A stretch of 64,000 bases of DNA from Abditibacterium sp. (GTDB taxonomy: Bacteria; Armatimonadota; Abditibacteriia; Abditibacteriales; Abditibacteriaceae): the NCBI GenBank assembly GCA_965199495.1, contig CBDASK010000003.1, positions 1,952,001 to 2,016,000 of the forward strand, written 5' to 3'. The notes under the pieces were generated by a model. It was not told the origin of the DNA and made no database searches. It saw only the letters and a list, made by a program, of their open reading frames with translations. Positions 3 through 64,000 of the stretch are shown here, piece after piece. Every line of letters begins with the position of its first letter. The stretch's first letter is position 1. The position numbers were made by a program, and so were the translations under genes.

Positions 3-1199
3 GTGATTTACAACAACAAATACGAGAAAACCAGCGGTTGGATCAAATCTTCGGTCGGGTTCGCCGAGAAATCGTCCGACGGCGACAAGACGATAAAACA
101 GCGCACGCTGGGCGAGTCGTTGAGCCTGACGCCGACCAATCAACATTGGACGATTTTTCGCGATAACACGAGCAAAATGGAGTTCATTCGCTCGTCGAAA
201 GAGCTGGTCGAAAAAGGCATGTTCGTCGAATTGAACGAATACGGTTGCCAAGTTTTTCTGGATTTTCGCGAAGTCAAAGACGAAAGCGGATTATATGCGC
301 GCTTGGCCAATTTGCTGGCGGGCGAGGGCACGCCAAGCGTAAATCGCGCGCTCAAAGAGATGTTGCTCGAATCGGTTTTGGTGCCATTTCGCAAACTCTG
401 CGACGCCGATTTGTGGGCGCAAGTGTTGGGAATCGCACCCAAAACGGCGGAAGTTGAAGCGCCCAAACTTGTGGCGAATTCGGCCAAGACGCCCGCCGTG
501 GCTGCTGTTGTCGAAGTGCCAAAAGTTGTAGCCGTTAAACCCGATGCGGCGGCGCTCGAAACGCTCGAAGAACGCTGGCTCAAAGCCGCGCGCGCCATCA
601 AACGCTTCGTGAAATCGGACGTGGACGAAGCGCAGTTACTCATTCAATTGCGCTCGCGTTTGGAACGCGCCATCGCGTCAAAAGCGCCCGATGCAACGCG
701 CGCACAGTTGTTGTCTTATGCTCTGGTCGCCGATTTGGGCGCGTTAAACGCGGGTGAAGGCGCGAAGACGCAAAGCCGCCAATGGTTCGACGATTGGCTC
801 TTGGGCGAATCGCTTGCCGTGCCATTGGAACAATTGGGCGCCGAAGCGGAGGCCGTTGTCGAAATCGGTTGGTGGCTGGCGCATCTACACAAAGCCGAGC
901 CGTTCGCACTGTTGTTGCAGTTATTGGCGGACGAAAGCGCCAAAGCGCAATTGGGCGTCAACCGCTTCGAGGGCACGTTGTGGTTTAATGCCGAAGGCTG
1001 GCAAACATTGCGCGAGGCGTTGCAACGCGGTGCCGAATTCGAGAGCATTAAGTTGCCGTTGAAGGAGTTGGACGATGCAGCCACGGCGAGTGGCTATCGC
1101 GTCGTCGCGTGGATGGAAGCGGCGCGTGGAACCGAGGAAGTCGCGGAAGTTGTGGCGCCGAAGCCGCAATCGGCGCGCAAAAAGGCACCGCAAAAGTAA
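3..1199 (+). CDS. C-terminal part of a large alpha-amylase-family (GH13-like) protein, 5'-truncated by the window edge
   Basis: ORF is open from the window start. YNNKYEKTSGWIKSS, YGCQVFLDF and LGVNRFEGTLWFNAE resemble the C-terminal region of long alpha-amylase-family proteins; the catalytic domain is not in the window. Confidence 0.55.
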   Translation: MIYNNKYEKTSGWIKSSVGFAEKSSDGDKTIKQRTLGESLSLTPTNQHWTIFRDNTSKMEFIRSSKELVEKGMFVELNEYGCQVFLDFREVKDESGLYARLANLLAGEGTPSVNRALKEMLLESVLVPFRKLCDADLWAQVLGIAPKTAEVEAPKLVANSAKTPAVAAVVEVPKVVAVKPDAAALETLEERWLKAARAIKRFVKSDVDEAQLLIQLRSRLERAIASKAPDATRAQLLSYALVADLGALNAGEGAKTQSRQWFDDWLLGESLAVPLEQLGAEAEAVVEIGWWLAHLHKAEPFALLLQLLADESAKAQLGVNRFEGTLWFNAEGWQTLREALQRGAEFESIKLPLKELDDAATASGYRVVAWMEAARGTEEVAEVVAPKPQSARKKAPQK

Positions 1200-1229
1200 G
1201 CGCGCAAAGTACGGATGGGAGTGTCAACT

Positions 1230-2150
1230 ATGTTTTTCACTGGATTCGCTGACGAAGCGGGCGCGGATTTGTCGGTTCAAATCGCTGCCACGAAAGCTCT
1301 GGGCTGGCGCCACATCGAAATGCGCAACGTTCGCGTTGAAGGCGCGACCAACGCGAATTTCGTGGAAGGCGCACGAAGTGCCGTTGCGGGCGGCAATGTT
1401 TGCGATATTCCCGACGCGGCCTTCGAGCTTTTGGTCGCCGCGTTGGACGAAGCGGAGGTGCGAATCAATTGTTTCGGCTCGGCGCTGGCCAATGGCAGCA
1501 AAAGCGTCGAGGCGCCCTTTGACGACGAATGGCAAGAAGCCAAACGCGCCGCGCGCCGCATGGAGCGTTTGGGCACTCGATTAATTCGCGTGATGAGTTA
1601 TCGCGCCCTGCCCGGCGCCGACCAAATGGCCGACGAGCGGTTTCGGCGTCTACGCGAGATGAACCAATTGTTCGCGGATGCGGGCGCGCAAATGGTTCAC
1701 GAAAATTGCGCGGGATATGGTGGCAACAGCGCGCAGCATACGCTCGAAATGCTGGATGCGGTGCCGGGATTAAAACTCGTTTTCGATACCGGCAATCCCA
1801 CGCGCGAAGCCGATCTGTCAAAACCGCCCGACGAAACGGGCGCTCGCCCGCGCCAATCGTCGTGGGATTTTTATGCGCAGGTCAAAGCGCACATCGCCTA
1901 CGTTCACCTCAAAGACGGCATTTACGACGAAACCACCAAAACGCATCGCTGGGTCATGGCGGGCGACGGGCAAGGCGATGTGCGCCGCATTTTGGCCGAC
2001 TTGCTGGCCAACGGCTACGACGGCGGTTTGTCTATCGAGCCGCATTTACCCGCCGAACGGTTGCCCGAATTGGAACCGTCGAAAGCGCGCGTGCAGAACT
2101 ATTTGGATTTCGGGCGGCGCGCGATGCAGTTGGTTGACGAACTCAATTGA
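1230..2150 (+). CDS. Sugar phosphate isomerase/epimerase (xylose isomerase-like TIM barrel)
   Basis: FTGFADEA, HEN, LVFDTGNP, YVHLKDG, GDGQGD and SIEPH metal-binding motifs. Confidence 0.85.
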   Translation: MFFTGFADEAGADLSVQIAATKALGWRHIEMRNVRVEGATNANFVEGARSAVAGGNVCDIPDAAFELLVAALDEAEVRINCFGSALANGSKSVEAPFDDEWQEAKRAARRMERLGTRLIRVMSYRALPGADQMADERFRRLREMNQLFADAGAQMVHENCAGYGGNSAQHTLEMLDAVPGLKLVFDTGNPTREADLSKPPDETGARPRQSSWDFYAQVKAHIAYVHLKDGIYDETTKTHRWVMAGDGQGDVRRILADLLANGYDGGLSIEPHLPAERLPELEPSKARVQNYLDFGRRAMQLVDELN

Positions 2151-2301
2151 CAGAACTGCCAACGTGCCGCAATTTTTTGACGGCAATTCATAGCATTGTT
2201 CGAAGTCCTGTTGGCCTTTTGAAACGTAGATGTTACACTGGGCGCCCTTGAATCGCGCCCGCGCTTTTGCGCCGAAATTCGCGGTTCGGAGTTTCCCCCT
2301 T

Positions 2302-3867
2302 TTGAAGTCAAAAACCCCTGTTTCCGCGCGTCTCAAAACCGAATGGTTGGCCAATCCCGGCGTCAATCTCATCTCCGGTTTGCTGGTCGCGCTCGCGCTC
2401 ATTCCCGAAGCCATCGGCTTCTCGATTGTGTGCGGGCTTGATCCCAAATACGGTTTATACGCCTCGTTCATTATCGCCGTCACGATTTCGATTGCTGGCG
2501 GGCGCATGGGCATGATCTCGGCAGCCACGGGCGCCGTGGCTCTGGCCCTCGTGCCGTTGTTGCGCCCGGATTTGGGCGCGCCCTCGCCCGAAAACATCAA
2601 TTTGATGTTCGCCGCCGCGATTATCGCGGGCCTGTTTCAGATTTTGTTCGGCTGGCGCAAGCTGGGACGCTATATGAAATACGTGCCCAAACCGGTCATG
2701 GTCGGCTTTGTCAACGCGCTCGCGATTTTGATTTTCATGGCGCAGTGGCCACAATTTCATGGCGCCAACTGGACGATGTATGCCTTCATTGCCGCCGGAC
2801 TCGCGATTATTTATGGTTTGCCCGCCTTGTTGAATCTGCTGCCCGAAGGGCCGGGCCAAAGTTTGGGCCTCATTCCCTCGCCCTTAATTGCTATTATCGT
2901 ATTGACGATGTCGGCGCATTATTCGGGCATCATCGGCATCAAAACGGTCGGCGATATGGGCGAATTTCCCTCCTCGCTGCCCCATTTGAACTTTTTCACG
3001 ATTCCGATTAACACGACGACGCTCGCGATCATTATTCCGCTTGGTCTAACAATCGCGATGATCGGCCTTATTGAATCGCTTTTAACCGCGCAATTGTTGG
3101 ACGAAAAAACCGACACGCCGAGCGACAAAAGTCGCGAATCGAAAGGTCAGGGCATCGCCAATATCCTATCGAGCCTATTTGGCGGAATGCCCGGTTGCGC
3201 GATGATCGGCCAATCCATGATCAACTTCGCGGGCGGCGGGCGCACGCGACTTTCCACGTTTTCGGCGGGCGTTTTTCTGCTGATTTTGATTGTCGCGCTG
3301 GGGCCATACGTCAAAATGATGCCGATGGGCGCTCTGGTTGCCGTGATGATTATGGTCTCGGTTTCGACGTTCGATTGGAAATCGTTGTCCAGTCTCAAAG
3401 AGCAGCCACGCGGCGAAGCCATCGTGATGTTGGCGACTGTTGGCACCACAGTTTTGACCCACGATTTATCGCGCGGCGTCCTCGTCGGCGTGGTTTTGTC
3501 GGCTTTATTTTTCCTGCGCCGCATCTCTAAGATGATGGACATCGAGAGTTTTTGGGACGGCGAAACGCGCACGATTACGCACGCGATTCACGGCCAAATG
3601 TTCTTCGCTTCGACGACGGCGTTTTTGGAACTGATTGACGATACCAACGCCGATTACGAAGCCGCCGAGCGTTTCGTGTTAGATTTTCGCGGCTCGCACG
3701 TTTGGGACGGCTCCGCCGTGGCTGCTGTTGATAAAGTTGTCTTGCGCGAACGCAATCGCGGTTTGGAAGTCGAAGTCATCGGTTTGAACGAAGCGAGCGA
3801 AGGTATTGTGGATAAGTTGGCCGTGCATCGCAGCGATGACGCGCCGCAAAGCCTAAGCGCGCATTGA
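2302..3867 (+). CDS. SulP family inorganic anion transporter with C-terminal STAS domain (start uncertain)
   Basis: ALALIPEAIGFS, GGRMGMISAATGA, GMPGCAMIGQS and STAS-like GQMFFAS...DGSAVAAVDKV. Confidence 0.92.
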   Translation: MKSKTPVSARLKTEWLANPGVNLISGLLVALALIPEAIGFSIVCGLDPKYGLYASFIIAVTISIAGGRMGMISAATGAVALALVPLLRPDLGAPSPENINLMFAAAIIAGLFQILFGWRKLGRYMKYVPKPVMVGFVNALAILIFMAQWPQFHGANWTMYAFIAAGLAIIYGLPALLNLLPEGPGQSLGLIPSPLIAIIVLTMSAHYSGIIGIKTVGDMGEFPSSLPHLNFFTIPINTTTLAIIIPLGLTIAMIGLIESLLTAQLLDEKTDTPSDKSRESKGQGIANILSSLFGGMPGCAMIGQSMINFAGGGRTRLSTFSAGVFLLILIVALGPYVKMMPMGALVAVMIMVSVSTFDWKSLSSLKEQPRGEAIVMLATVGTTVLTHDLSRGVLVGVVLSALFFLRRISKMMDIESFWDGETRTITHAIHGQMFFASTTAFLELIDDTNADYEAAERFVLDFRGSHVWDGSAVAAVDKVVLRERNRGLEVEVIGLNEASEGIVDKLAVHRSDDAPQSLSAH

Positions 3868-3875
3868 TGTTTTAA

Positions 3876-5624: not shown

Positions 5625-7415
5625 ATGGCCCTGCTTAGTCTTCAGAACATCTCCTATCGCGTCGCCGACGCGCCGCTACTCGAAAACGCCGATTTACAAA
5701 TCGAGCGCGGCGAACGCGTCTGTATCGTCGGGCGCAACGGCGCCGGGAAATCGACATTACTGCGCATTATTTCGGGCGAAATCGCGCCCGACGACGGAAT
5801 TGTTGTGATTGACAAAGGCGTCAAAGTCGCGCGTTTGCCCCAGGAAGTGCCCGAAGGTTTCGTTGGAACGGTCGCGCAAATCGTCGCGGGCGATTCGGGC
5901 GCGCAACCGCACGAAATTGAGGCGACGATTTCGCGCTTGGGATTGGAAGGCGACGCGCAATTTCAAACGTTGTCGGGCGGCATGAAGCGGCGGGCGTGGC
6001 TGGGTCGCACGCTGGTTTCGCAGCCCGACGTTTTGTTATTGGACGAGCCGACCAACCATCTGGATATTGATTCGATTCAATGGCTCGAAGAGTTTTTGCT
6101 GCGCTATGTGCGCACGATTTTGTTCGTCAGCCACGACCGCGCCTTCACGCGCAATCTGGCGACGCGCATCGTCGAAATCGACCGCGCGACTTTGTATGCG
6201 TGGAACTGCAACTACGACGAATATCTGGAGCGCAAAGCCTCGGCGCTGGCCAACGAAGAACGCGAGCGCGCGTTGTTCGATAAAAAATTGGCGCAGGAAG
6301 AAGTCTGGATTCGCAAAGGCGTCGAGGCGCGGCGCACCAAAAGCAACAGCCGCATTCGTGAACTGATCAAAATGCGCGAAGAACGCTCGCAACGCCGCGA
6401 ACGTTTGGGAAATGTCGGAATGGAATTGCAAAGCGCGCAACGTTCGGGCGCTTTGGTCGCGCAGGCGAAAAATATCGCGTTTGCGTATAACGGCGAAAAA
6501 CCGATTGTCGAAGATTTCACGACGACAATTATGCGCGGCGATAAAGTCGGCATCATCGGGCCAAACGGCGCGGGAAAAACCACGCTTTTGCGTTTATTAC
6601 TGGGCCAACTCGAACCGCAATCGGGCGAAGTGAAGCTGGGAACGAACCTGCAAATCGCTTATTTCGATCAGTTGCGCGCGCAACTCGATCCCGAATTAAC
6701 GGTGCAACAGAACGTCGCGGGCGAGAATTCGACCGTGCAATTCAACGGCGAACACGTTCACGTCGTCGGATATTTGAACCAATTTTTGTTTTCGTCGCCG
6801 CGCATTCGCACCAAAGTCAAGTTTTTATCGGGCGGCGAACGCAATCGCTTATTGCTGGCCAAATTGTTTACGCAACCGGCGAATTTGTTGGTGATGGACG
6901 AGCCGACCAACGATTTGGACGCCGAAACGCTCGACTTATTGGAAGAATTGTTGATGAATTTCAAAGGCACGCTGTTGATGGTGAGCCACGACCGCGCGTT
7001 TTTGAATAACGTCGTGACGGGAACTTTGGTTTTCGAGCCAAACGCGGATGGCGATTTAGAATTGCAAGAATACGTCGGCGGCTACGACGATTGGTTGCGC
7101 CAACGCCCGCAAATAGCAGCCACGCCGGAAGTGAAAGTCGCGTCCAAAGTTGTTAAGGCGCCAAAAGCACGCAAATTGAGCTTCAAAGAAACGCGCGAAT
7201 TGGAAAGTTTGCCCGCGCAAATCGAGCAGTTGGAAACCGAACAAGCCGAATTAGTCGAGAAGTTGGCCGACCCAGATTTATACAGCGACGGAGCCAAAGT
7301 GAGTGCGACAACGGCGCGCATGAAAGCGGTCGAAAACGCATTGGAAACCGCGTTCGAGCGTTGGGAAGAATTACTCGAAATGGAGAAAAAATCGGCGGCG
7401 GGCGAACTGTTTTGA
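5625..7415 (+). CDS. uup: ABC-F family ATPase (Uup-like)
   Basis: Two ABC domains (GRNGAGKS/LSGG/LDEPTNHLD and GPNGAGKT/LSGGE/DEPTNDLD) plus a C-terminal KLSFKE..ELE coiled coil. Confidence 0.88.
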   Translation: MALLSLQNISYRVADAPLLENADLQIERGERVCIVGRNGAGKSTLLRIISGEIAPDDGIVVIDKGVKVARLPQEVPEGFVGTVAQIVAGDSGAQPHEIEATISRLGLEGDAQFQTLSGGMKRRAWLGRTLVSQPDVLLLDEPTNHLDIDSIQWLEEFLLRYVRTILFVSHDRAFTRNLATRIVEIDRATLYAWNCNYDEYLERKASALANEERERALFDKKLAQEEVWIRKGVEARRTKSNSRIRELIKMREERSQRRERLGNVGMELQSAQRSGALVAQAKNIAFAYNGEKPIVEDFTTTIMRGDKVGIIGPNGAGKTTLLRLLLGQLEPQSGEVKLGTNLQIAYFDQLRAQLDPELTVQQNVAGENSTVQFNGEHVHVVGYLNQFLFSSPRIRTKVKFLSGGERNRLLLAKLFTQPANLLVMDEPTNDLDAETLDLLEELLMNFKGTLLMVSHDRAFLNNVVTGTLVFEPNADGDLELQEYVGGYDDWLRQRPQIAATPEVKVASKVVKAPKARKLSFKETRELESLPAQIEQLETEQAELVEKLADPDLYSDGAKVSATTARMKAVENALETAFERWEELLEMEKKSAAGELF

Positions 7416-13058: not shown

Positions 13059-13157
13059 CCGTAGAGACGCCGATTTATCGCGCCTAACACTGTCAGAGTT
13101 GCTTTGTCGTAACGGAATTTACGACGTTTTAGACGCGATAAATCGGCGTCTCTACGG
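13059..13157. repeat. REP doublet (REPIN-like), GTAG type
   Basis: GTAGAGACGCCGATTTATCGCGCCTAA plus the inverted copy TTAGACGCGATAAATCGGCGTCTCTAC. Confidence 0.8.
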
Positions 13158-16883: not shown

Positions 16884-16931
16884 GATATAAGAGGCGGCCA
16901 GAAGCGCGGTTTCGGGTCTAAGATGCTTTTT

Positions 16932-21344: not shown

Positions 21345-21432
21345 CCTGTTAAAACAGCCAGCGCGCAAAAGAAAAGCGCCAATGCGACGTGGCTGCACTC
21401 GAACGTTGCGCCACTCGGCCAAGTTTTGTCGT
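21345..21432 (-). pseudogene. Diverged remnant duplicate of the 3' end of the MBOAT-like gene
   Basis: Translates DKTWPSGATFECSHVALALFFCALAVLTG, versus DEDWPRGAWFEIGHVALTLLFCALAILFG at about 21960-22047. Confidence 0.75.
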
Positions 21433-51604: not shown

Positions 51605-51698
51605 GTAGAGACCCCGAAATTTCGGGCCTAAAACGTTGAAGTTGCTTCCACGCTGCGGCAGTTGATACGTTTTAGGGCCGACATTTCGGGGTCTCTAT
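51605..51698. repeat. REP doublet (REPIN-like), GTAG type
   Basis: GTAGAGACCCCGAAATTTCGGGCCTAAAACGT plus an imperfect inverted copy. Confidence 0.75.
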
Positions 51699-55230: not shown

Positions 55231-56937
55231 TCACTTTTTCCCGCGCTTTTTCGCCGTCGAAACGCCCGCGTCTTTGAGCAGCGTCTTCGCGTGTTCCAAG
55301 TTCGCGCGACTTTCGCTGCCCATCATGCGCGCCAATTCCTCGACGCGCGCGGGGCCGTCGAGCGGCGTCACGTCCACAGTGGTCGCTTCGTCGCCCGCCG
55401 CTTTGACGACGCGAAAATGATGGTCGGCGCGCTTGGCGATTTGCGGCAGGTGCGTGATACAAAAAACCTGATGATACTTGGCGATGTGGCTCATCTTTTC
55501 GCCGACTTTCTCGGCAGTTAAACCACCGATGCCGGTGTCAATTTCGTCGAAAATTACAATCGGCACGCGATGTTCGGCTTCGGTATCGCGCAAAACCGAG
55601 CGTAAACCGAGCATCACGCGCGAAATTTCGCCGCCCGACGCGATTTTGGCGAGCGGACGAAGCGGCTGGCCGGGGTTGGCCGAAAGCAGAAATTCGACGC
55701 GGTCAATGCCGTCGGACGCGGCTTTTTCCAATTTTTCAAAACCAATTTCAAAACGCGCTTTTTCCATCGCCAAGCCGGAAAGTTGCTCGACGACTTCGCT
55801 CGAAAACTGCGTCGCCAACTTTTTGCGGTCGTCCGACAATCGGTTCGCCAATTCGTAATATTCACTTTTGCGCGCGGCGGCTTCGGCTTTGAGTTCGGCG
55901 ATCTGTTCGTCGCTCAAGTTTAATTCACCGATTTCGGTTTCGATTTGCGCGCGATATTCCAACACTTCCGAAACCGTCGCGCCGTATTTGCGCTTGAGAC
56001 GATTGATTTTGTGCAGTCTCGATTCGATCTGTTCCAAGCGCGCCGGGTCGGCGTCCAAGGTTTCGGCGTAAGCGCGCGCGGATTCGGCGGTGTCTTCTAA
56101 ATCCAAAATCGCGCTTTGCATGCGCTCCACCCATTCGGCGATGCTGGCATCGGTCGCCTCAATTTCGCGCGCGGCTTTCAAGCCTTGGCGCGCCAAACCT
56201 AAGGCACCCAACTCTTCGTCGCCCCACAAGCTGCCGACGCACAGCGCAGCGCTCAAGCGTAAACCTTCGGAGTTGAGCAGGCGCGCGCGTTCTTCGGCGA
56301 TCTCTTCGTCTTCGTCGGGTGTAAGTTTGGCTTTGTCTATTTCCGCCGCCTGATCTTGCAGCGTATCCAAACGTTGCACGCGCGCCTGTTCGTTGCGCGA
56401 AAGTTCGGCGACCGCGCGTGCAGCCACGCGCCATTGCTTATGGGCATCTCGCACTTGATCTTTGAGTTCGCCGTGGCTGCTGTCGCCGAACTCGTCCAAA
56501 AACAGCAGATGCGCGTCGGGCGACAATAACATTTGGTTCTCGTGTTGGCCATGCAAATCCACCAGAAAACTGCCCAACTCGCGCAGGCCCGTCGCCGTGG
56601 CTAAACGTCCGTTGAGTCGCACGCGCGAACGGCCCGACGATTCAACTTCGCGCGCCACGATGAGCGCGTCATCGTCAACGGGAAAGCCGTGTTCTTCGAG
56701 CCAGTGCCGCGCGCGCGGCGCGTTGGTCAAATCGAAGGCGCCTTCGACAATGGCGCGGCCTTGCACGTTGCCGACCTGTTCGGCGGCGGCGCGCTCGCCC
56801 AGCAAAAGTCCCAGCGCCTGAATCAGGATAGACTTGCCCGCGCCGGTCTCGCCGGTTAATGTGTTGAAGCCCGCGCCGGGCGCGATTTCGGCCCGTTCGA
56901 TTAAAGCAAAATTCGAGATGCGAAGTTCGAGAAGCAC
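55231..56937 (-). CDS. recN: DNA repair protein RecN
   Basis: L.I.NFALI, TGETGAGKS, HGQHE, ASGGE.SR, FDEIDTG and ITHLPQIA; GTG start at 56937. Confidence 0.96.
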   Translation of the reverse strand: MLLELRISNFALIERAEIAPGAGFNTLTGETGAGKSILIQALGLLLGERAAAEQVGNVQGRAIVEGAFDLTNAPRARHWLEEHGFPVDDDALIVAREVESSGRSRVRLNGRLATATGLRELGSFLVDLHGQHENQMLLSPDAHLLFLDEFGDSSHGELKDQVRDAHKQWRVAARAVAELSRNEQARVQRLDTLQDQAAEIDKAKLTPDEDEEIAEERARLLNSEGLRLSAALCVGSLWGDEELGALGLARQGLKAAREIEATDASIAEWVERMQSAILDLEDTAESARAYAETLDADPARLEQIESRLHKINRLKRKYGATVSEVLEYRAQIETEIGELNLSDEQIAELKAEAAARKSEYYELANRLSDDRKKLATQFSSEVVEQLSGLAMEKARFEIGFEKLEKAASDGIDRVEFLLSANPGQPLRPLAKIASGGEISRVMLGLRSVLRDTEAEHRVPIVIFDEIDTGIGGLTAEKVGEKMSHIAKYHQVFCITHLPQIAKRADHHFRVVKAAGDEATTVDVTPLDGPARVEELARMMGSESRANLEHAKTLLKDAGVSTAKKRGKK

Positions 56938-57560: not shown

Positions 57561-59261
57561 CTAATTTTCGTCGTTGACGCGGTAAACCTCGCGTTCGATG
57601 AAAATGCGCAGCGCGTCCGCGTCGAGTTTGCCCAGCGCGGCTTCCTGACTCAGGATGCGCAGCGCCAGTTCGGGCGGCAAAGCGCGTTTGTAGGGACGGT
57701 CGGCGGCGGTGAGGGCGTCGTAAACGTCGGCGATGCCCATGAGTTTGGCGCCGAAGGGAATCTCGCTCAAAGCCAAGCCTTGCGGATAGCCCGAACCGTC
57801 CAAACGCTCGTGATGCGAGCGCGCAATGCTTGGCACATTGCTGAGAGTGGATGTCCACGGGATTTGCTTGAGAAATTCGTAGGACATCTGCGCGTGCTGC
57901 TGAATCTGGCGAAACTCGACGGGCGTGAGCGTGCCGCGCACCACGCGCAACGCGTCGGCTTCGGTTTCGGTCAGCAGAGGCCGTGATTGGCCGCGCGCAT
58001 CCAGATAACACATCTCGGTCAGGCGCGAGATGCCCGCGCGCGCGGCGGCCCAGGTTTCGTCCGAATACGGCTCCTGCATTGGATCGTTGATGATCTCAAT
58101 CGCCTCGAAATCGGCGCGCAGACGAGCGATGCGCTCCTCCATCGCCAGTTGGTAGACCTCGTGGCTGGTGCTGGCGTCGGGGGCACCGCTATGCCACAAC
58201 TGCAACTGCTGACGCACGCAATCGGCCTCCCACTGGCGTTGCAAAATCAGCACGCGCGCCTCGATTTCGGCGAACTCAGTGAACGTGATTTTATGACTTT
58301 TGGTCAAAACCGCCTCGCGCACGCCGATTTTGCCGAAGTCGTGTAACAGACACGCATAACGCAACTCGCGCATTTGCAATGGGGTCACTTCGCATTGAGC
58401 GAGTGGGCCAGCGTTGGCTTCGTTGATGGCCTGCGCCAACGCCAACGTCAAATTGGTCACGCGTTTCGAGTGGCCCGAAGTGGTCGGGTCGCGACTTTCA
58501 ATGGCGCTCGAAGCGGCTTCGACCAAGGCTTCAAACAGGCTTTCGATTTCGCGCAGCAGCAGATTGTTATTCAGAGCCACCGCCGCCTGCGAAGCCAGCG
58601 TCGCGGCCAGATCGGTCATCTCTTCGTCGAAACCCAGCACTTCGCGCTCGACGATTGCGGGCGTCGTCAGGCGCGTTTGGTGATTTTGCTTGCGGTTGAT
58701 AAGCTGCAAAACGCCGATGGTTTCGCCGACGTGGTTTTTTAGCGGCACGACCAAAACTGACTTGGTGCGATAATTATGCTCCTGATCGAAACGTGGATTG
58801 AAGCGAAACGGCATTGCGTCCGGCAACTGATAAACGTCGTCAAAGCGCAAAATCTCGCCAGAAAAAGCGGCGTAACCGGCCAGACTGTTAGCGCCCACCA
58901 CAAATGTCATATTGTCGGTATCAACCGTAATCGAATCGTTCTGAGAGGCGCGAAAAAACAGGTTTTTGCTGCCATTTTCGGCGGTCTCCACAATGTAAAG
59001 CGAGCCGCCATCCGAGGCCGTCAAATCGCGCGCGGCGGTTAGAATCATCCGCAGCAACAAGTGAATATCGCGTTCGGCGGACAGCGCCAGACCGATCTCC
59101 GAAAGATGGCGCAGACGCCGCGCCGCGACCGAAACCTCGCTGTTATCGCCCAACGCCGCCGAAACCTGCGGCGCGCTCAGCGGCGACAACGCCATCGGAA
59201 CGATGCCAGCGCCAACCGAAAGATCGGATGACAAAGTTGGAGTTCGCCGAGAGTTATTCAT
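57561..59261 (-). CDS. GAF plus HD-GYP phosphodiesterase
   Basis: GAF domain (DGGSLY...Y.TKS.L.VPL), T.GHS.RV, LHDFGK, HHERLDGSGYP and ADVYDALT. Confidence 0.92.
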   Translation of the reverse strand: MNNSRRTPTLSSDLSVGAGIVPMALSPLSAPQVSAALGDNSEVSVAARRLRHLSEIGLALSAERDIHLLLRMILTAARDLTASDGGSLYIVETAENGSKNLFFRASQNDSITVDTDNMTFVVGANSLAGYAAFSGEILRFDDVYQLPDAMPFRFNPRFDQEHNYRTKSVLVVPLKNHVGETIGVLQLINRKQNHQTRLTTPAIVEREVLGFDEEMTDLAATLASQAAVALNNNLLLREIESLFEALVEAASSAIESRDPTTSGHSKRVTNLTLALAQAINEANAGPLAQCEVTPLQMRELRYACLLHDFGKIGVREAVLTKSHKITFTEFAEIEARVLILQRQWEADCVRQQLQLWHSGAPDASTSHEVYQLAMEERIARLRADFEAIEIINDPMQEPYSDETWAAARAGISRLTEMCYLDARGQSRPLLTETEADALRVVRGTLTPVEFRQIQQHAQMSYEFLKQIPWTSTLSNVPSIARSHHERLDGSGYPQGLALSEIPFGAKLMGIADVYDALTAADRPYKRALPPELALRILSQEAALGKLDADALRIFIEREVYRVNDEN

Positions 59262-60409: not shown

Positions 60410-62244
60410 CAGCCGACCGCCGCCGCGCCTTTCAAGCGCGCGACATTGCTTTTGGCTTCGTCGTGATCAGGCGCCAAATCGAGCGCCTTTTGATAATTGT
60501 CGAGCGCGCCCGCGCGGTCGCCTTTGGCTTCGAGAACCACGCCCAAATCGTTATAGGCGTTGGCGTTTTTCGGATAGGCTGCAATGATGGCGCGATAAGC
60601 CGCTTCGGAACCGGCGTAATCCTTCATGTTATAGAGCGCGCGGCCCAGACCCGAACGCGCTTCGGTGTCGGCGGGCGTGAGCGCCAGCAATTTGCGATAT
60701 TCGTCGGCGGCCTCTTTATATTTCGCCTGCGCCAACAAGTTGGAAGCGATGCCCGAACGCGCCGTCGCGAGACGTGCTTCGAGAGCTTTGCGGTCGGCAA
60801 TATTGGCGCCGCGCGAAGCGGCGGCGGCAGCGGTCGCCAGCTTTTGCCACTCGTCGGTGGACATATCGAGCTTGTTTTGCGCCGCCAAAACAATCGCCAG
60901 ATTGGTGCGCGCGTCGTAGAAATCGGGATCCAAAACCAACGCTTCGTTGAATTTGGCGACGGCTTCGTCGAAGCGCCCGCGCTTGAAATAGATGCGCCCG
61001 ACATTGTTTTTGGTCGCGGCGTCGTTGGGTTTGAGCTTTTCGGCGGCGCCGTATTGTTCCAGCGCCTCGTCAAATTTCGACGAGTAATCGAGAGCCACGC
61101 CCAGGTTGAAGCGCCCGGTAAAATCGTCGCCGCGCACATTGACGTAGCGGCGCAAAGCCGCCGCCGCGTCGCTATAATTGTTGCTGCGCAGATGAATATC
61201 GCCGATTTGTAACAGCGCCGCCGCGTTGTTGGGATTGACGTTCAACAGTTCACGTAGCGCGGCTAAAGCGTCGTCGCGGCGCCCGTTGTTCAGCAGAATC
61301 AGCGCGAATTTAAAGCGATAATTTTCGTTTTTCGGGTCGAGCGCGATGGCGCGTTTGTAGGCGCCCAATGCGCTACTTGAATTTCCGGTGCGGTCGTAGG
61401 CTTCGCCCAAACCCTCTTCGATGGCGGCATCGTTGGGATTTTTGGCTTCCAAAAGTTTCAGATGTGGCAACGCATCGGCGAACTGGTCGCTCGAAAGCAA
61501 CGCGAAGGCCAGATTGTAACGCGCGTCGTAATAATCGGGCTGAAGTTTGAGCGCCTCTTCAAAAGCGGTGCGCGCGGGCGCATTCTCGCTTTTGTTCCAG
61601 CGCGCGAAACCGATGTTATTGAGCAGTTGCGCGCGGGCAGCCACGTCGAGGTTCTTGCCGTTGTCCTGCGCCGATTGCAGCGCGGTCAAGGCGCCGTCCC
61701 AGTTTTTCTGTTGCAAACGCACGTAGCCCAGAAATGAAAACGCGCCCGCATCATTGGGCGAAAGCATCGCCGCGCGACCAAACGACGCTTCGGCGGCGTT
61801 CCAATCGCTATTTTTAATCGCGGTCAGTCCCGCATTATAAGCCAGCGTCGCCTCGCGCAAACGCGTGGCGTCGTCCATATTGGCCGCATCGGGCGGCGGC
61901 GCAATCGTCGTTGCGGGCGGCGGCGTTGCGGGCGGCGTCGTTGCGGGCGGCGTCGTTGCGGGCGGCGGCGTTGCGGGCGGCGTTGTCGCGGGCGGCGTTG
62001 TCGCGGGCAGCGTTGTCGCGGGCGGCGTTGTCGCGGGCGGCGTCTCCACTTGAACGTTGGCGGGCGGCGTGGCTGGTGTTGTCGCGGGTGCAGTCGGCGC
62101 AGGCGGCGCAGGCGGCGTCGGTGGCGCCGGTGGTTTGGCGGGCGCGGTCGGTGGCGGCGGAACCGGCCCCAGTGAGGGGTCTTGCGCGCGGGCGGTCAAA
62201 GGAATCAGAGCCGAAAAGCTCAGCAGCAGCAGCGTTTTTTTCAT
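60409..62244 (-). CDS. Secreted TPR-repeat protein with a Pro/Thr-rich linker
   Basis: Signal peptide, (T/P)TPPA repeats and many TPRs (NNIG, YNLA, NLGV). Confidence 0.88.
   Translation of the reverse strand: MKKTLLLLSFSALIPLTARAQDPSLGPVPPPPTAPAKPPAPPTPPAPPAPTAPATTPATPPANVQVETPPATTPPATTLPATTPPATTPPATPPPATTPPATTPPATPPPATTIAPPPDAANMDDATRLREATLAYNAGLTAIKNSDWNAAEASFGRAAMLSPNDAGAFSFLGYVRLQQKNWDGALTALQSAQDNGKNLDVAARAQLLNNIGFARWNKSENAPARTAFEEALKLQPDYYDARYNLAFALLSSDQFADALPHLKLLEAKNPNDAAIEEGLGEAYDRTGNSSSALGAYKRAIALDPKNENYRFKFALILLNNGRRDDALAALRELLNVNPNNAAALLQIGDIHLRSNNYSDAAAALRRYVNVRGDDFTGRFNLGVALDYSSKFDEALEQYGAAEKLKPNDAATKNNVGRIYFKRGRFDEAVAKFNEALVLDPDFYDARTNLAIVLAAQNKLDMSTDEWQKLATAAAAASRGANIADRKALEARLATARSGIASNLLAQAKYKEAADEYRKLLALTPADTEARSGLGRALYNMKDYAGSEAAYRAIIAAYPKNANAYNDLGVVLEAKGDRAGALDNYQKALDLAPDHDEAKSNVARLKGAAAVG
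61905..62043 (-). repeat. In-frame 15-bp tandem repeat (about 9 units) encoding TTPPA
   Basis: GTCGTTGCGGGCGGC / GTTGTCGCGGGCGGC units. Confidence 0.85.
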
Positions 62245-62378
62245 ACGGAACACGGGAAGGAAAAATCAAAAGAAAACGGCGAATCGCACGATTCGCCAGA
62301 CTTTCGATGTTTTTAAACCAGAGAAGTTTTAACGCTTTGAGCCAATCACTGCATCATTGCGCTTGATAATTCTTACAT

Positions 62379-63689
62379 TTAGCCCACTTCATCGAACCGC
62401 AAAACCAAGGTTTCGCCTTCGACATCCACGTTTAATTCCGAGTGAAGCCTGTATTCTCGGCCCCCACACGTCACTTTTTCGCGCGCGCGCTTGAGCAAAT
62501 CGGTGCGTAGCGTCAGCCACGTCCAAGAGGGCAAAATTTTGTGCTGTTGCCATTGTCCGTCCATTTCATACGAGACGACGACGTTGCCGCGATCCTGCAA
62601 CCGAATCGCGGGCAGTTTCCCTTGAATCGCGTGCAGCAAAATATCGTTGACCAAACGGATGGCGGGCGCTTCCCATATTGGCGTGACGCCGCGTTTCTTA
62701 TCATCGTCCTCTCTACGCCGCTTTTGTCTGTCATTCCATTTGTCGAAAGCGAAAGGCGCGGCAAAAACCAGCGCGCCCGTGCCTAAAACCGGCCAACGTG
62801 CGCGGCGCGGCCACCAACCGCTCGACGACAAAACGGCGAATCCCGCGAACATCAGCGCCGCAAGAATCTGGTGTTTCCTATCGCGCGCCGCATTTTGCCC
62901 TCGTAAATCCGCGCCACAATTCCAGCACCAAACCGCATCGGGCGGTTTCTCTTCGCGACACTGCAAACATTGGACATCGGGCAGATCATCGAAACGCAAA
63001 GCGCCCATGGCTGCTTCGAGCGGCGCGCTTTCAAACTGAAATCGCAGCGTTTCGCCCTGCACATCCGTTTCCAATTGCGCGCGAAAATCGCTTAATTTCA
63101 ACGAATTGCGATGATTTCCCAATTCATACTCCGAAGACTCCAACTTAAATTCGCCTTGCCGCGCATAACGCAAAAGCTGTTGGCGTAGCGGCTTCCACAC
63201 GTAAAGCGGGATTTTCATCTGCTCGCGCCACTCGTTCTCGATTTGATAACAAACCCGAATACCCCGGCCTTTTTCCTCGATGCGCGTGGTCATGGCTTTA
63301 TCTCGCCACGCGTAATAAAGAATGGTTTCGGCGATTCTCACCGAAGGCGACCTTTCGCCTTCACGATTTATCGCGTCGTCGGTTTTATCTTTGGCGAAAC
63401 GATTTTTCAAAATATCGATCAACATCGGCCCGAAAAGAGCGCTCGCACTCGCGCCCAAAACCGGCAGACGCATTCTGCGCGGCAACCAACCGCTGGCGGT
63501 TGACGCCACAATCGCCATGTAAGGCACGGCATCGGAAAGCCGCTTTTTCACTTTTTCGCCCGTCGAATTTTCAGCTTTGGGCACCGGCGCGCTCGCTCTT
63601 CCAGCGCCCAGCGGCGTGTAGCACGCCCAACACATCACGGCATCGGCGAGGTTTTCTTCGCCGCATTTCGGGCAATTTTGCGTTTTCAT
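62379..63689 (-). CDS. Tandem-duplicated module: zinc ribbon + TM hairpin + PilB/GspE N2-like domain, no ATPase
   Basis: CPKC..CWAC and CLQC..CWNC; SGW(L/W)PRR twice; PSVRIAETIL..A and EAPAIRLVNDIL.HAI..YEMDG. Confidence 0.65.
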   Translation of the reverse strand: MKTQNCPKCGEENLADAVMCWACYTPLGAGRASAPVPKAENSTGEKVKKRLSDAVPYMAIVASTASGWLPRRMRLPVLGASASALFGPMLIDILKNRFAKDKTDDAINREGERSPSVRIAETILYYAWRDKAMTTRIEEKGRGIRVCYQIENEWREQMKIPLYVWKPLRQQLLRYARQGEFKLESSEYELGNHRNSLKLSDFRAQLETDVQGETLRFQFESAPLEAAMGALRFDDLPDVQCLQCREEKPPDAVWCWNCGADLRGQNAARDRKHQILAALMFAGFAVLSSSGWWPRRARWPVLGTGALVFAAPFAFDKWNDRQKRRREDDDKKRGVTPIWEAPAIRLVNDILLHAIQGKLPAIRLQDRGNVVVSYEMDGQWQQHKILPSWTWLTLRTDLLKRAREKVTCGGREYRLHSELNVDVEGETLVLRFDEVG

Positions 63690-63833
63690 TGATAAAGTCT
63701 ACCCACGCGAAATCGCGCTTAAACCGCAAGCGAGCATTTGCCGACAGTTCTCCGCTCAACATTGTGCGAGGAACAATACCAAAGCGCGCGAGGTCAAACT
63801 GCGCGCGTTTTGATTTTCAGCGCCCAATTACCC

Positions 63834-64000
63834 ATGAAACTTTCCTTCGTCGGCCCAATACTCGCGGCCTTGATTTTGGCGACCAGCGCCGCCAACGCGC
63901 GCGCCGATGAAGTTCAATTGCCCAGTTCGGCCAGTGCGCCGACAACAGCAGCCACGGCGGTGGCGTTGCCCGGCGTTCATTGCGTTTTGCGCACCGCCAA
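63834..64000 (+). CDS. Secreted hypothetical protein, 3'-truncated by the window edge
   Basis: MKLSFVGPILAALILATSAANARA signal peptide; the frame stays open to the end. Confidence 0.55.
   Translation, partial: MKLSFVGPILAALILATSAANARADEVQLPSSASAPTTAATAVALPGVHCVLRTA

What the first reader, a model, noticed from the sequence alone, without database searches (positions are those of the whole stretch)
495..63958. Candidate new DNA uptake sequence (or other chromosome-wide signal): CGTGGCTG / GCCGTGGCTGCTGTTG at about 1 copy per 1.2 kb
SEEN: a hand count gave 55 exact copies of the non-palindromic 8-mer. On + (25): 497, 3717, 5995, 10236, 12339, 13525, 15621, 17722, 19012, 21388, 25803, 29158, 30875, 32462, 33449, 35024, 35208, 42590, 47319, 50175, 53182, 54562, 56472, 58160, 62068. 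As CAGCCACG (30): 1078, 2522, 3403, 6128, 7117, 10045, 13361, 14418, 16298, 16371, 18225, 21933, 22455, 22844, 26896, 32987, 33586, 34474, 36314, 38758, 39091, 39877, 41045, 47095, 48804, 49727, 56421, 61638, 62514, 63949. Many CGTGGCT(A/C/T) near-matches also occur. A rough zero-order expectation at about 57% GC is only 3-4 copies. The full 16-mer GCCGTGGCTGCTGTTG occurs exactly four times in unrelated genes (495, 3715, 15619, and reverse at 63943). Copies are almost all inside CDSs and use all six frames: AVAAV (497), AWL (5995), RGC (32462), AAT (7117), QPR (3403) and SH (6128). They often impose GCT/GCA Ala codons in a genome that otherwise seems to favour GCC/GCG, so the constraint looks to be on the DNA. 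KNOWN: about 1/kb density, both orientations and coding-sequence embedding characterise Neisseria DUS (GCCGTCTGAA) and Pasteurellaceae USS (AAGTGCGGT). Chi and KOPS are strand-polarised and cyanobacterial HIP1 is palindromic, so neither fits. INFERENCE: this is a self-DNA recognition signal for natural transformation in a lineage where I know of none, or else a binding or modification site for a chromosome-wide protein. Unlike classical DUS/USS, the terminators seen here do not contain it.
Basis: partly seen in the sequence, partly recalled or inferred. Interest (0 to 1): 0.92.

Follow-up and report, generated by a model that had tools for sequence, protein, structure and literature searches.

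The report
Genome-wide self-DNA word in Abditibacterium
This soil bacterium writes one short DNA word about once every 1.5 kb across its chromosome, straight through its genes, much like the tags a few bacteria use to recognise their own DNA, and its relatives carry their own versions of such words.

Summary
All 55 listed copies of CGTGGCTG are present, against about 1.9 expected. The chromosome holds 3083 copies (0.65/kb); the two small replicons hold 0.08-0.09/kb. Enrichment survives amino-acid-preserving nulls: 2888 copies in ORFs against 271 and 518. All six frames are enriched, and there is no replichore polarity.

Only 3 of 27 family genomes carry this word, and they use two flank dialects. 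A sister genus carries unrelated words at about 1/kb: a uniform terminator hairpin and a 12-bp palindrome.

Same-orientation copies avoid each other within about 1 kb, while opposite-orientation copies do not.

ComEC, ComEA, DprA and type IV pilus genes are present. RecC was not found, and no AddAB-type protein turned up. No Vsr, C5-methylase, RAYT or helicase-nuclease gene tracks the word.

Best reading (0.45): a DUS/USS-like self-recognition word linked to transformation and read strand-specifically. Function is untested.

Earlier notes of this scan report similar words in other phyla.

The parts
497..504 (+). motif copy, sense frame 2 (AVAA); part of exact 16-mer 495-510
1078..1085 (-). motif copy, antisense frame 1 (AAT)
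2522..2529 (-). motif copy, antisense frame 1 (AAT), sulfate permease gene
3403..3410 (-). motif copy, antisense frame 0 (QPR)
3717..3724 (+). motif copy, sense frame 2 (AVAA); part of exact 16-mer 3715-3730
5995..6002 (+). motif copy, sense frame 1 (AWL), ABC-F ATPase gene
6128..6135 (-). motif copy, antisense frame 2 (VSHD)
7117..7124 (-). motif copy, antisense frame 1 (AAT)
10045..10052 (-). motif copy, sense frame 1 (AWL) of a minus-strand gene
10236..10243 (+). motif copy, antisense frame 2 (SSHG)
12339..12346 (+). motif copy, sense frame 2 (AVAA), GH1 glycosidase gene
13361..13368 (-). motif copy, antisense frame 0 (QPR)
13525..13532 (+). motif copy, sense frame 2 (PVAD)
14418..14425 (-). 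motif copy, antisense frame 1 (AAT)
15621..15628 (+). motif copy, antisense frame 1 (AAT); part of exact 16-mer 15619-15634
16298..16305 (-). motif copy, sense frame 2 (DVAA)
16371..16378 (-). motif copy, sense frame 1 (TWL)
17722..17729 (+). motif copy, sense frame 2 (RVAD), polyphosphate kinase gene
18225..18232 (-). motif copy, antisense frame 1 (PAT), polyphosphate kinase gene
19012..19019 (+). motif copy, sense frame 2 (GVAG), polyphosphate kinase gene
21388..21395 (+). motif copy outside my called ORFs
21933..21940 (-). motif copy, sense frame 1 (AWL)
22455..22462 (-). motif copy, sense frame 1 (AWL)
22844..22851 (-). motif copy, sense frame 2 (DVAD)
25803..25810 (+). motif copy outside my called ORFs
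26896..26903 (-). motif copy, antisense frame 2 (SSHG)
29158..29165 (+). motif copy, sense frame 2 (GVAA)
30875..30882 (+). motif copy, sense frame 2 (AVAG)
32987..32994 (-). motif copy, antisense frame 2 (TSHG)
33449..33456 (+). motif copy, sense frame 2 (AVAA)
33586..33593 (-). motif copy, antisense frame 1 (PAT)
34474..34481 (-). motif copy, antisense frame 0 (QPR), DNA pol III delta-prime gene
35024..35031 (+). motif copy, sense frame 1 (AWL)
35208..35215 (+). motif copy, sense frame 2 (PVAA)
36314..36321 (-). motif copy, antisense frame 1 (AAT)
38758..38765 (-). motif copy, sense frame 1 (TWL)
39091..39098 (-). motif copy, sense frame 1 (PWL)
39877..39884 (-). motif copy, antisense frame 2 (ISHA)
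41045..41052 (-). motif copy, antisense frame 2 (SSHA)
42590..42597 (+). motif copy, sense frame 2 (DVAA), L-fucose isomerase gene
47095..47102 (-). motif copy, sense frame 2 (DVAA)
47319..47326 (+). motif copy, antisense frame 0 (QPR)
48804..48811 (-). motif copy, sense frame 1 (AWL)
49727..49734 (-). motif copy, sense frame 2 (DVAA)
50175..50182 (+). motif copy, antisense frame 1 (AAT)
53182..53189 (+). motif copy, sense frame 2 (RVAD)
54562..54569 (+). motif copy, sense frame 2 (PVAD)
56421..56428 (-). motif copy, sense frame 2 (RVAA), RecN gene; left member of an inverted pair 51 bp apart
56472..56479 (+). motif copy, antisense frame 2 (SSHG), RecN gene; right member of the inverted pair
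58160..58167 (+). motif copy, antisense frame 2 (TSHE)
61638..61645 (-). motif copy, sense frame 2 (DVAA), TPR protein gene
62068..62075 (+). motif copy, antisense frame 1 (PAT)
62514..62521 (-). motif copy, sense frame 1 (TWL)
63949..63956 (-). motif copy, antisense frame 1 (AAT); part of exact 16-mer 63943-63958 (reverse)

Best explanation
The word is core CGTGGCTG, in this genome about CG-[C/G]-CGTGGCTG-C-T. I read it as a chromosome-wide self-DNA recognition word of the DNA-uptake-sequence kind (DUS/USS, collectively DUES).

Proposed mechanism, all inferred. A sequence-specific reader in the transformation pathway (type IV pilus, ComEA, ComEC, DprA) favours fragments that carry the word. 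Point mutations that create the word are then preferentially passed between conspecific cells, which is molecular drive. They accumulate wherever the protein tolerates them. DNA that arrived recently, such as plasmids and defence islands, lacks the word.

Why strand-specific. Copies in the same orientation exclude each other within about 1 kb, while copies in opposite orientation are independent. I therefore infer that the word is read on one strand or directionally, for example on the single strand that enters the cell. One copy per strand per fragment of roughly 0.5-1 kb would then suffice. Palindromes and tight inverted pairs, as seen in relatives, would serve both strands at once.

What is shown: abundance, constraint at the DNA level, distribution, dialects, turnover by substitution, and presence of the competence genes.

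For: Abundance and DNA-level constraint
- 55 copies in the window against 1.9 expected, and 3083 on the chromosome.
- 2888 copies in ORFs, against 271 +/- 16 under a synonymous shuffle and 518 +/- 17 under a context-preserving shuffle. All six frames are enriched.
- Val-Ala is written GTG-GCT 4.4 times more often than codon usage predicts.

Distribution like DUES
- The two orientations are equal, 1525 and 1558. Per-200-kb orientation skew lies between -0.12 and +0.13.
- Spacing is more even than Poisson: CV 0.93, or 0.82 without gaps over 8 kb.
- Density is 0.08-0.09/kb on the small replicons, against 0.65/kb on the chromosome.
- The largest word-free gaps are mostly low in GC. The cluster at 1.12-1.22 Mb holds three serine recombinases, a Type I restriction-modification system and an Eco57I/MmeI-like methylase.

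Inverted pairs
- 99 of 105 pairs no more than 60 bp apart are inverted, in both -/+ and +/- arrangements. H. influenzae has 109 close pairs, 69 -/+ and 40 +/- (PMC7811141, section 19).
- In G004, 51 inverted pairs lie within 50 bp in 400 kb and form 19-bp-stem hairpins.

Dialects and turnover
- G000 and G011 share one set of flanks; G004 uses TAGGA-CGTGGCTG-GTGTC.
- Genus g6 has GAGTAC+GG+TCGA hairpins in G017 (2633 copies of the 9-mer). The palindrome TCGAGTACTCGA has 2770, 2510 and 2261 sites in three genomes, and 0 in the 21 family genomes outside g6.
- Word sites are kept in G011 at 122 of 176 (69%), against 37% for all 8-mers. Differences are substitutions in ungapped alignment.

Redundancy
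- Same-orientation pair density is 0.10-0.35 of expectation below 500 bp and about 1 beyond 1.5 kb. Opposite orientation stays near 1. Two control 8-mers show no exclusion. Label permutation gives z = -13.
- The effect holds across gene borders and appears again in G004 and G011.
- In H. influenzae a second USS within 100 bp adds no uptake (PMC7811141, section 19).

Machinery
- ComEC 862 aa, DprA and ComEA-type HHH_3.
- 7 loci matching T2SSE ATPases, 47 prepilin-type proteins and secretins.
Against: - No uptake or transformation data exist, and I know of no report of natural transformation in this phylum (recalled).
- The competence genes do not discriminate: ComEC is found in 20 of 21 relatives, most of which lack the word.
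- In H. influenzae the orientation of the USS in a fragment does not affect uptake (PMC1939737, passages). Orientation-specific exclusion is therefore not a known property of uptake sequences and needs my added assumption of strand-specific reading.
- 94% of copies lie in ORFs. This is far more than the 35-65% cited for DUS/USS (PMC1939737) or the roughly half found in terminators (bioRxiv 10.1101/2025.10.24.684340).
- The words of the two genera are unrelated in sequence, and one is a 12-bp palindrome. That looks more like replacement of a DNA-binding or modification specificity than gradual dialect drift.
- Word sites of G000 are no better conserved in G004 than random 8-mers: 43 of 161 (27%) against 28%.
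- No receptor candidate was singled out.
Confidence: 0.45

Rival explanations
1. A Chi-like signal. The oriented word is read by a DNA translocase or nuclease moving along linear or broken DNA. On meeting the word, the enzyme switches from degradation to recombination or protection. The word would thus mark self DNA. Because two-ended breaks or incoming linear DNA must be protected from both sides, both orientations are needed everywhere, and a second copy just behind the first adds nothing.
For: - Exclusion is orientation-specific, and the two orientations are independent of each other. That is what a directional reader predicts.
- The word is scarce on the plasmid, on the second small replicon and in defence islands.
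- A Dna2-like 1421-aa nuclease-helicase (PD-(D/E)XK plus SF1B) exists in G000, G004 and G011, but in 0 of the 10 other genomes of the genus.
- The 3' flank of the G004 dialect resembles the E. coli Chi octamer in 7 of 8 positions. This is recalled, not tested.
Against: - There is no replichore polarity: 1524 leading against 1559 lagging for the best GC-skew split.
- RecC was found in 0 of 21 genomes. Only two PDDEXK_1 hits exist in G000, and neither is AddAB-like.
- The nuclease-helicase does not track hyperabundant words. G041 and G016 have it without such a word (the G016 sample is only 57 kb). G066 has a word but no match to this protein at the search's E-value cut-off.
- A 13-fold enrichment that rewrites codons and amino acids seems too strong for per-site repair benefits (inference).
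Confidence: 0.2
2. A HIP1-like word. It would be the binding or modification site of an intracellular, chromosome-wide protein, such as an orphan methyltransferase with a cognate repair nickase or a nucleoid or maintenance factor. It would accumulate through biased repair or weak selection and have no link to DNA uptake. Specificity would change when the protein is replaced.
For: - The sister genus carries a perfect 12-bp palindrome at 0.7-0.9/kb, with 65% of copies in ORFs. This closely parallels cyanobacterial HIP1 as I recall it.
- Word sequences differ radically between genera, which fits swapping of specificity modules.
- Several methyltransferase genes exist in every genome examined.
Against: - No Vsr is shared. 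PF03852 is over threshold only in G004, on a small contig; it is sub-threshold in G000 and absent from G011.
- C5-methylases show no matching pattern in either genus.
- The information extends over 13-18 bp with graded flanks. As recalled, that is longer than usual methylase sites.
- Single-mismatch neighbours show no transition-specific depletion.
- A purely local repair drive does not predict interference between same-strand copies up to 1 kb apart.
Confidence: 0.2
3. A REP/REPIN or MITE-like mobile element, spread by a RAYT-type (IS200-like) transposase, of which the 8-mer is the conserved core.
For: - G004 and G017 carry hundreds of near-identical intergenic hairpins built from the word.
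- Y1 transposase genes are common in the genus; G000 has 8 matches.
Against: - In G000, 2888 of 3083 copies lie inside ORFs, in all frames, and only 8-13 bp are conserved.
- Orthologous positions in G011 and G004 differ by substitutions in ungapped alignments, not by insertions.
- The RAYT-like gene with flanking repeats is flanked by a different REPIN of about 18 copies.
- The intergenic hairpins in the window belong to another family and lack the word.
Confidence: 0.03
4. A by-product of amino-acid, codon or dinucleotide bias, with no DNA-level signal.
For: Frame use is uneven. Sense frame 2 (1179 copies) and antisense frame 1 (832 copies) dominate.
Against: - Enrichment is 5.6- to 10.6-fold over nulls that preserve the amino-acid sequence.
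- It uses the rare Ala codon GCT.
- 10 of 12 other genomes of the same genus do not show it.
- Orientation-specific spacing has no protein-level explanation.
Confidence: 0.01

Closest known systems
DNA uptake sequences of Neisseriaceae (DUS) and uptake signal sequences of Pasteurellaceae (USS), together DUES
   Same: - A short asymmetric word at about 1/kb, equal on both strands and unpolarised.
- Written through genes with biased frame use.
- Close inverted pairs and hairpins.
- Spacing more even than random.
- Lineage dialects.
- Depleted in foreign DNA.
- Competence genes present.
(PMC1939737, PMC7811141 and bioRxiv 10.1101/2025.10.24.684340, passages read)
   Different: - A different phylum (Abditibacteriota/Armatimonadota) with no known transformation.
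- 94% of copies in ORFs in this genome.
- Few terminators use the word here.
- Same-orientation exclusion over about 1 kb, with the opposite orientation unaffected. Orientation is reported not to matter for USS uptake.
- The related genus uses unrelated words, including a palindrome.
- Uptake bias and a receptor are not shown.
HIP1, the highly iterated palindrome of cyanobacteria (properties recalled, not looked up here)
   Same: - About 1/kb, in all frames and inside genes.
- Conserved at orthologous sites beyond expectation.
- Function unknown.
- The 12-bp palindrome of the sister genus is a close formal analogue.
   Different: - The word in this genome is not a palindrome.
- No link to a methyltransferase was found.
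Chi sites read by RecBCD/AddAB
   Same: An over-represented, oriented G/T-rich octamer. Orientation seems to matter. It would act as a self-marker absent from foreign DNA.
   Different: - No co-orientation with replication.
- RecC was not found and no AddAB-type protein was identified.
- Much higher density and enrichment than I recall for Chi.
REP/REPIN elements with RAYT transposases
   Same: The hairpin forms in G004 and G017. The genome also has a true REPIN-RAYT pair and a second hairpin family.
   Different: Copies in G000 are single, lie inside genes, are only 8-13 bp long, and arise by substitution.

Membership tests
DNA uptake sequences (DUS/USS) | Hyperabundance of one short word on the chromosome beyond composition and coding nulls | tested here: met
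   3083 copies; 2888 in ORFs against 271 and 518 under two nulls that preserve the amino-acid sequence.
DNA uptake sequences (DUS/USS) | Both orientations equal, with no bias around the chromosome | tested here: met
   1525 against 1558; bin skew between -0.12 and +0.13.
DNA uptake sequences (DUS/USS) | Copies inside genes with biased frame use, plus inverted-repeat copies that form hairpins or terminators | tested here: met
   (99 of 105 close pairs inverted). Searches show the G004 hairpins. In G000 few pairs are intergenic.
DNA uptake sequences (DUS/USS) | Dialects among related lineages | tested here: met
   (flanks of G000/G011 against G004). (words of genus g6).
DNA uptake sequences (DUS/USS) | Under-representation in plasmids, phages and recently acquired islands | tested here: met
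   (0.08-0.09/kb on C1 and C2). (the word-poor stretch at 1.12-1.22 Mb holds recombinases and restriction-modification genes).
DNA uptake sequences (DUS/USS) | Complete transformation machinery (ComEC, ComEA, DprA, type IV pilus) | tested here: met
   This does not discriminate: ComEC is in 20 of 21 relatives.
DNA uptake sequences (DUS/USS) | DNA carrying the word is preferentially taken up or transformed | not testable with these tools
   Needs uptake or transformation assays.
DNA uptake sequences (DUS/USS) | A cognate receptor (ComP-type minor pilin or equivalent) | not tested
   47 prepilin-type proteins are present. None was singled out.
Chi | Co-orientation with the direction of replication | tested here: not met
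Chi | A cognate RecBCD or AddAB enzyme | tested here: not met
   RecC PF04257 in 0 of 21 genomes. PDDEXK_1 gave 2 hits, neither AddAB-like.
Chi | Attenuates a nuclease or stimulates recombination in one orientation | not testable with these tools
   Only indirect evidence: orientation-specific exclusion.
HIP1-type iterated palindromes | The word is a palindrome | tested here: not met
   CGTGGCTG is asymmetric. Genus g6 does have a 12-bp palindrome.
HIP1-type iterated palindromes | A link to a DNA methyltransferase of matching specificity | tested here: inconclusive
   No Vsr or C5-methylase pattern matches. N6/N4 methylases are present everywhere. Specificities are unknown.
REP/REPIN-RAYT | Extragenic palindromic units that spread by insertion and flank a RAYT gene | tested here: not met
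   94% of copies lie in ORFs. Orthologues differ by substitutions, not insertions. The RAYT-like gene is flanked by another REPIN.
KOPS/AIMS | Strong strand switch at origin and terminus | tested here: not met
   The only strongly 'polar' 8-mers were a CRISPR array.

The most novel reading that the evidence does not exclude
A whole bacterial family (Abditibacteriaceae) runs a fast-evolving machinery that writes a private word through each lineage's chromosome. The words seen are an asymmetric 8-13-mer here, an 18-mer hairpin arm in a sister species, and a uniform terminator hairpin and a 12-bp palindrome in the next genus. The machinery would read the word on one strand of incoming or processed DNA, one copy per strand per roughly 1 kb. 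If so, this would be the first uptake-sequence system outside Proteobacteria. It would also show that DUS/USS-like words and HIP1-like palindromes are two outputs of the same kind of strand-specific self-recognition.
Probability: 0.3. Interest if true: 0.9.

Novelty: new variant of a known kind. Interest (0 to 1): 0.8.

Why it matters
Uptake sequences are described from only two proteobacterial families (bioRxiv 10.1101/2025.10.24.684340 and PMC1939737, passages read). How they arise, and what HIP1-type words do, are long-standing open questions.

This case offers three things:
- A complete genome from a barely studied phylum, carrying a word as abundant as any DUS or USS.
- Close relatives with and without the word, and a sister genus whose word has changed form (palindrome, hairpin arm), so origin and change of specificity can be followed step by step.
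- A quantitative signature, same-strand exclusion over about 1 kb, that constrains the mechanism and can be tested directly on known DUS/USS genomes.

If function is confirmed, it would extend sequence-specific self-recognition of DNA to a new phylum and give a handle for genetics in it. Earlier notes of this scan report similar words in other phyla, so the phenomenon may be far more common than the literature suggests.

Tried and rejected
- Replichore polarity (Chi/KOPS). Rejected. The strongly skewed 8-mers that my scan first returned were a CRISPR array of about 140 repeats, not a polarity marker.
- Very-short-patch repair drive. Vsr (PF03852) is over threshold only in G004, sub-threshold in G000 and absent from G011. 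Single-mismatch neighbours show no transition-specific depletion.
- C5-methyltransferases. No pattern matches the word in genus g1 or g6. N6/N4 methylases are present everywhere.
- RAYT/REP origin. Y1 transposases are common in all relatives. The one gene with flanking repeats carries a different REPIN.
- RecBCD/AddAB. RecC was found in 0 of 21 genomes, and no AddAB-like protein was found.
- Dna2-like nuclease-helicase. It looked promising, being present only in the 3 word-bearing genomes of the 13 in the genus. Wider sampling rejected it. It occurs in 21 of 401 phylum genomes. G017 has the protein and a word, G041 and G016 have the protein without a word, and G066 has a word but no match to the protein. 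The G016 sample is only 57 kb.
- 'One copy per gene'. Exclusion also holds across gene borders.
- Literature. A full-text search for the motif letters returned 122 papers, of which 20 were listed, all unrelated by title. A search for the genus name returned 62 papers, of which 15 were listed, all ecology or taxonomy by title. No description of the word was found.
- Technical.

Full report
**1. The observation**

In 100 dinucleotide-preserving shuffles the mean was 1.89 and the largest 5. The 16-mer GCCGTGGCTGCTGTTG occurs 4 times exactly and 11 times with up to 2 mismatches, against 0.05 expected.

The window is G000:C3:1952001-2016000.
- The 4.72-Mb chromosome (55.75% GC) has 1525 + 1558 = 3083 copies, or 0.65/kb.
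- The 24.7-kb replicon has 2 copies and the 64.6-kb replicon has 6, or 0.08-0.09/kb.
- The word is the 13th commonest 8-mer when strands are collapsed. Every commoner one is built mainly of C and G.

**2. Where the information sits**

Under maximal-order Markov expectation the core is the hexamer GTGGCT: 6390 observed against 3073 expected, the highest z-score of all hexamers.

A logo around the 8-mer adds C (0.75) and G (0.82) at positions -3 and -2, a non-T base at -1, and C (0.58) and T (0.49) after it. The recognised unit is therefore about 13 bp.

**3. The constraint is on the DNA**

I called 3757 ORFs with a simple longest-ORF procedure, covering 88.6% of the chromosome. These are my own approximate gene calls.
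- 2888 of 3083 copies lie in ORFs: 0.69/kb, against 0.36/kb outside.
- Shuffling synonymous codons within each gene gives 271 +/- 16 copies.
- Permuting third bases only among sites with the same codon prefix, amino acid and following base gives 518 +/- 17. Each null was run 10 times.
- All six frames exceed both nulls. The strongest are xxC-GTG-GCT-Gxx (1179 copies) and the antisense xCA-GCC-ACG (832 copies).
- GCT is 11% of Ala codons, yet Val-Ala is GTG-GCT in 16.9% of 12062 dipeptides, against 3.8% expected. In the compatible context it is 42.9% of 2746.

In the window, 52 of 55 copies lie in ORFs for ordinary housekeeping proteins, including polyphosphate kinase, RecN, pol III delta-prime and fucose isomerase.

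**4. Distribution along the chromosome**

- Orientation skew per 200-kb bin lies between -0.12 and +0.13. It follows the very weak GC skew only faintly.
- For the best GC-skew bipartition the counts are 1524 against 1559.
- The 8-mers that did look polar belong to a CRISPR array.
- Spacing has a CV of 0.93, or 0.82 without gaps over 8 kb, with a deficit of spacings from 100 to 1000 bp.
- 20 gaps over 8 kb total 212 kb, and most of the largest are low in GC.
- The cluster at 1.12-1.22 Mb holds three large serine recombinases, Type I restriction-modification genes, an Eco57I/MmeI-like methylase with an SNF2 helicase, a KAP NTPase and a PIN-GNAT protein. It is a mobile defence region.
- Replicon C1 encodes RepA and a TraG/VirD4-type coupling protein.
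- Within genes the copies are spread uniformly.

**5. Same-orientation exclusion**

Among neighbouring copies the fraction in opposite orientation falls with distance:

| Distance | Fraction inverted |
|---|---|
| up to 20 bp | 0.97 |
| 60-100 bp | 0.87 |
| 100-500 bp | 0.69-0.82 |
| 0.5-1 kb | 0.67 |
| 1-2 kb | 0.59 |
| beyond 2 kb | 0.5 |

The all-pairs correlation function separates two effects.
- Same-orientation pairs occur at these fractions of expectation: 0.10 (under 50 bp), 0.14 (50-100), 0.29 (100-300), 0.35 (300-500), 0.54 (500-750), 0.78 (750-1000), 0.87 (1-1.5 kb) and about 1 beyond.
- Opposite-orientation pairs stay between 0.77 and 1.26 at all distances, except for a 2.3-fold (+/-) and 3.7-fold (-/+) excess at 20 bp or less.
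- Two other asymmetric 8-mers of similar abundance show no exclusion: 1.15-1.67 of expectation at 20-500 bp.

Three further checks support the effect.
- Of 600 pairs 21-500 bp apart, 139 share orientation. Label permutation gives 300 +/- 12 over 5000 runs, with a minimum of 252.
- The effect holds for pairs within one ORF and for pairs in different ORFs.
- It recurs in the samples of G004 and G011: 0.21-0.38 at 100-750 bp. These genomes are kin, although most G000 sites are not shared with G004.

**6. Relatives and dialects**

Record titles of the closest polyphosphate-kinase loci place the genome in Abditibacterium, phylum Armatimonadota/Abditibacteriota.
- Of 27 genomes of the family, only G000 (3091 copies), G004 (3503) and G011 (2676) are enriched. 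The other 24 are at or near the level of the reversed-word control.
- The three form a tight clade. Ppk identity is 93% and 90%, against 70-73% for the three other genus members checked.
- G000 and G011 share flanks. In G004 the word is T-A-G-G-A-CGTGGCTG-G-T-G-T-C, and the exact 18-mer occurs 57 times in 400 kb.
- In G004 many copies form inverted pairs with 19-bp arms and AT-rich loops of about 10-14 nt. There are 51 opposite pairs within 50 bp among 279 copies, and 68% of copies lie in ORFs.

Genus g6 has different words.
- G017 has the hairpin AAAAGAGTACGGTCGA-wwT-TCGACCGTACTCTTTT, which looks like a bidirectional terminator. The 9-mer has 2633 copies in G017, against 1-8 in four congeners, and 31% lie in ORFs.
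- The 12-bp palindrome TCGAGTACTCGA has 2770 sites in G066, 2510 in G164 and 2261 in G249.
- It has 144 sites in G131, 2 in G017, 1 in G226, and 0 in the 21 family genomes outside g6.
- In the G066 sample 65% of copies lie in ORFs.
- The G017 arm equals the G066 word with GG inserted: GAGTAC-GG-TCGA against GAGTAC-TCGA.

Three samples showed no such word: G009 (only a 5.5-fold 8-mer at 0.3/kb), G041, and G016 (57 kb only).

**7. Turnover**

In ungapped blastn alignments I compared word sites with all 8-mers.
- G000 against G011 (83.6% identity): 122 of 176 G000 sites (69%) are kept, against 37% of all 8-mers. 122 of 151 G011 sites are kept in G000.
- G000 against G004 (79.4% identity): only 43 of 161 G000 sites (27%) are kept, against a control of 28%. 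43 of 85 G004 sites are kept in G000.

Most copies inside G000 genes therefore arose, or were retained, after the split from G004. The commonest differences sit at third-codon positions of the dominant frame, such as GCT against GCC or GCG.

Among differing coding sites, 62% (against G004) and 73% (against G011) also change an amino acid. Control 8-mers do so at 55% and 47%. The force therefore also reshapes proteins.

**8. Candidate machinery**

Present in G000:
- ComEC, 862 aa.
- DprA.
- ComEA-type HHH_3.
- 7 loci matching T2SSE ATPases, with a pilus cluster near 0.86 Mb.
- 47 prepilin-type proteins.
- Several secretins.

ComEC is present in 20 of 21 relatives, so these genes permit the uptake reading but do not single it out.

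Not found, or not tracking the word:
- RecC was found in 0 of 21 genomes.
- PDDEXK_1 gives two hits. One is a small protein in a word-free island. The other is a 1421-aa protein with an N-terminal RecB/Cas4-like nuclease and a C-terminal Dna2/Upf1-like SF1B helicase.
- Vsr, C5-methylases and Y1 transposases do not follow the word.

The Dna2-like protein occurs only in the three word-bearing genomes of the genus. Across the phylum it occurs in 21 of 401 genomes and does not track hyperabundant words. G017 has both, G041 and G016 have the protein only, and G066 has a word only. I drop it as a specific candidate.

**9. Interpretation**

The anatomy matches the published description of DUS/USS.
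- About 1/kb, unpolarised and evenly spaced.
- 35-65% of copies in ORFs and about 10% in inverted repeats (PMC1939737, passages).
- Close inverted pairs in both arrangements, and no extra uptake from a second nearby copy (PMC7811141, section 19).
- About half of copies in terminators, and frame bias inside genes (bioRxiv 10.1101/2025.10.24.684340, passages).

The family here spans that range and goes beyond it: 31% of copies in ORFs in G017, 65-68% in G066 and G004, and 94% in G000.

Same-orientation exclusion, with opposite orientations independent, says that a copy makes a second copy on the same strand redundant within about 0.5-1 kb, but not a copy on the other strand. A fragment-based process in which one copy suffices explains the redundancy. 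Strand- or direction-specific reading explains the orientation rule. It also explains why palindromes and tight inverted pairs are favoured elsewhere in the family.

I therefore favour a transformation-linked, strand-specifically read self-recognition word (0.45). A Chi-like directional signal without a known enzyme gets 0.2, and a HIP1-like intracellular site gets 0.2. The mobile-element and coding-bias readings are essentially excluded for this genome.

**10. Limits**

- Function is untested.
- Gene calls are my own.
- Relatives were sampled, at 57-400 kb each, not scanned whole.
- The three word-bearing species are kin, so their agreement is not independent evidence.
- I could not compute the orientation-resolved spacing for true DUS/USS genomes.
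- I read passages, not whole texts, of the three papers cited, and saw no supplements.
- Earlier notes of this scan, unchecked by me, report similar genome-wide words in Opitutales, Bacteroidota, Acidobacteria, Rhodocyclaceae, a phage lineage and giant viruses.

Noticed in passing
window 13060-13156 and 16931-17027 (also single arms at 4398-4405 and 51605-51612): Long intergenic hairpins of a second repeat family, with outer ends GTAGAGAC...GTCTCTAC and variable inner arms. GTAGAGAC occurs 6 times in the window against 0.12 expected. These REPIN- or terminator-like elements do not contain the CGTGGCTG word, and they explain several other over-represented 9-11-mers seen genome-wide.
   Followed up: partly
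G000:C3, a run ending near 3,035,946 (outside the window): A large CRISPR array of about 140 repeats spaced 66 bp apart. The repeat is ATTTCAATCTCACAAGACCCGATTAAAAC. It first showed up as falsely 'polarised' 8-mers.
   Followed up: partly
L167:1250-2000 (G000:C3:3721250-3722000): A 150-aa IS200/RAYT-like gene flanked on both sides by long REPIN hairpins that begin GGCGAATAAATTCGCAGCCACA. The family has about 18 copies in the genome.
   Followed up: partly
L175:5365-11038 (G000:C3:4111365-4117038): A 1421-aa protein with an N-terminal RecB/Cas4-like nuclease and a C-terminal Dna2/Upf1-like SF1B helicase, next to a bacterial topoisomerase IB gene. It is patchily distributed (21 of 401 phylum genomes), and no curated family matches it over its full length.
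   Followed up: partly
L236-L241 (G000:C3:1119001-1229000): A roughly 100-kb low-GC, word-poor region. It holds three large serine recombinases, a Type I restriction-modification system, a 1433-aa Eco57I/MmeI-like methylase beside an SNF2 helicase, a KAP NTPase, a NucS-like protein, several very large proteins (1118-2121 aa) with little or no Pfam match, and a DnaE-type polymerase at its edge.
   Followed up: partly
L180-L199 (G017:C14:400001-800000): In this related genus one hairpin sequence, with an A-tract before it and a T-tract after it, appears to serve as the terminator for much of the genome. There are 106 perfect hairpins plus 137 single or imperfect copies in 400 kb.
   Followed up: partly
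window 43924-45810 (-): A 628-aa protein with a Schlafen AlbA_2 domain and a HATPase_c_4 domain, sitting among sugar-metabolism genes.
   Followed up: no
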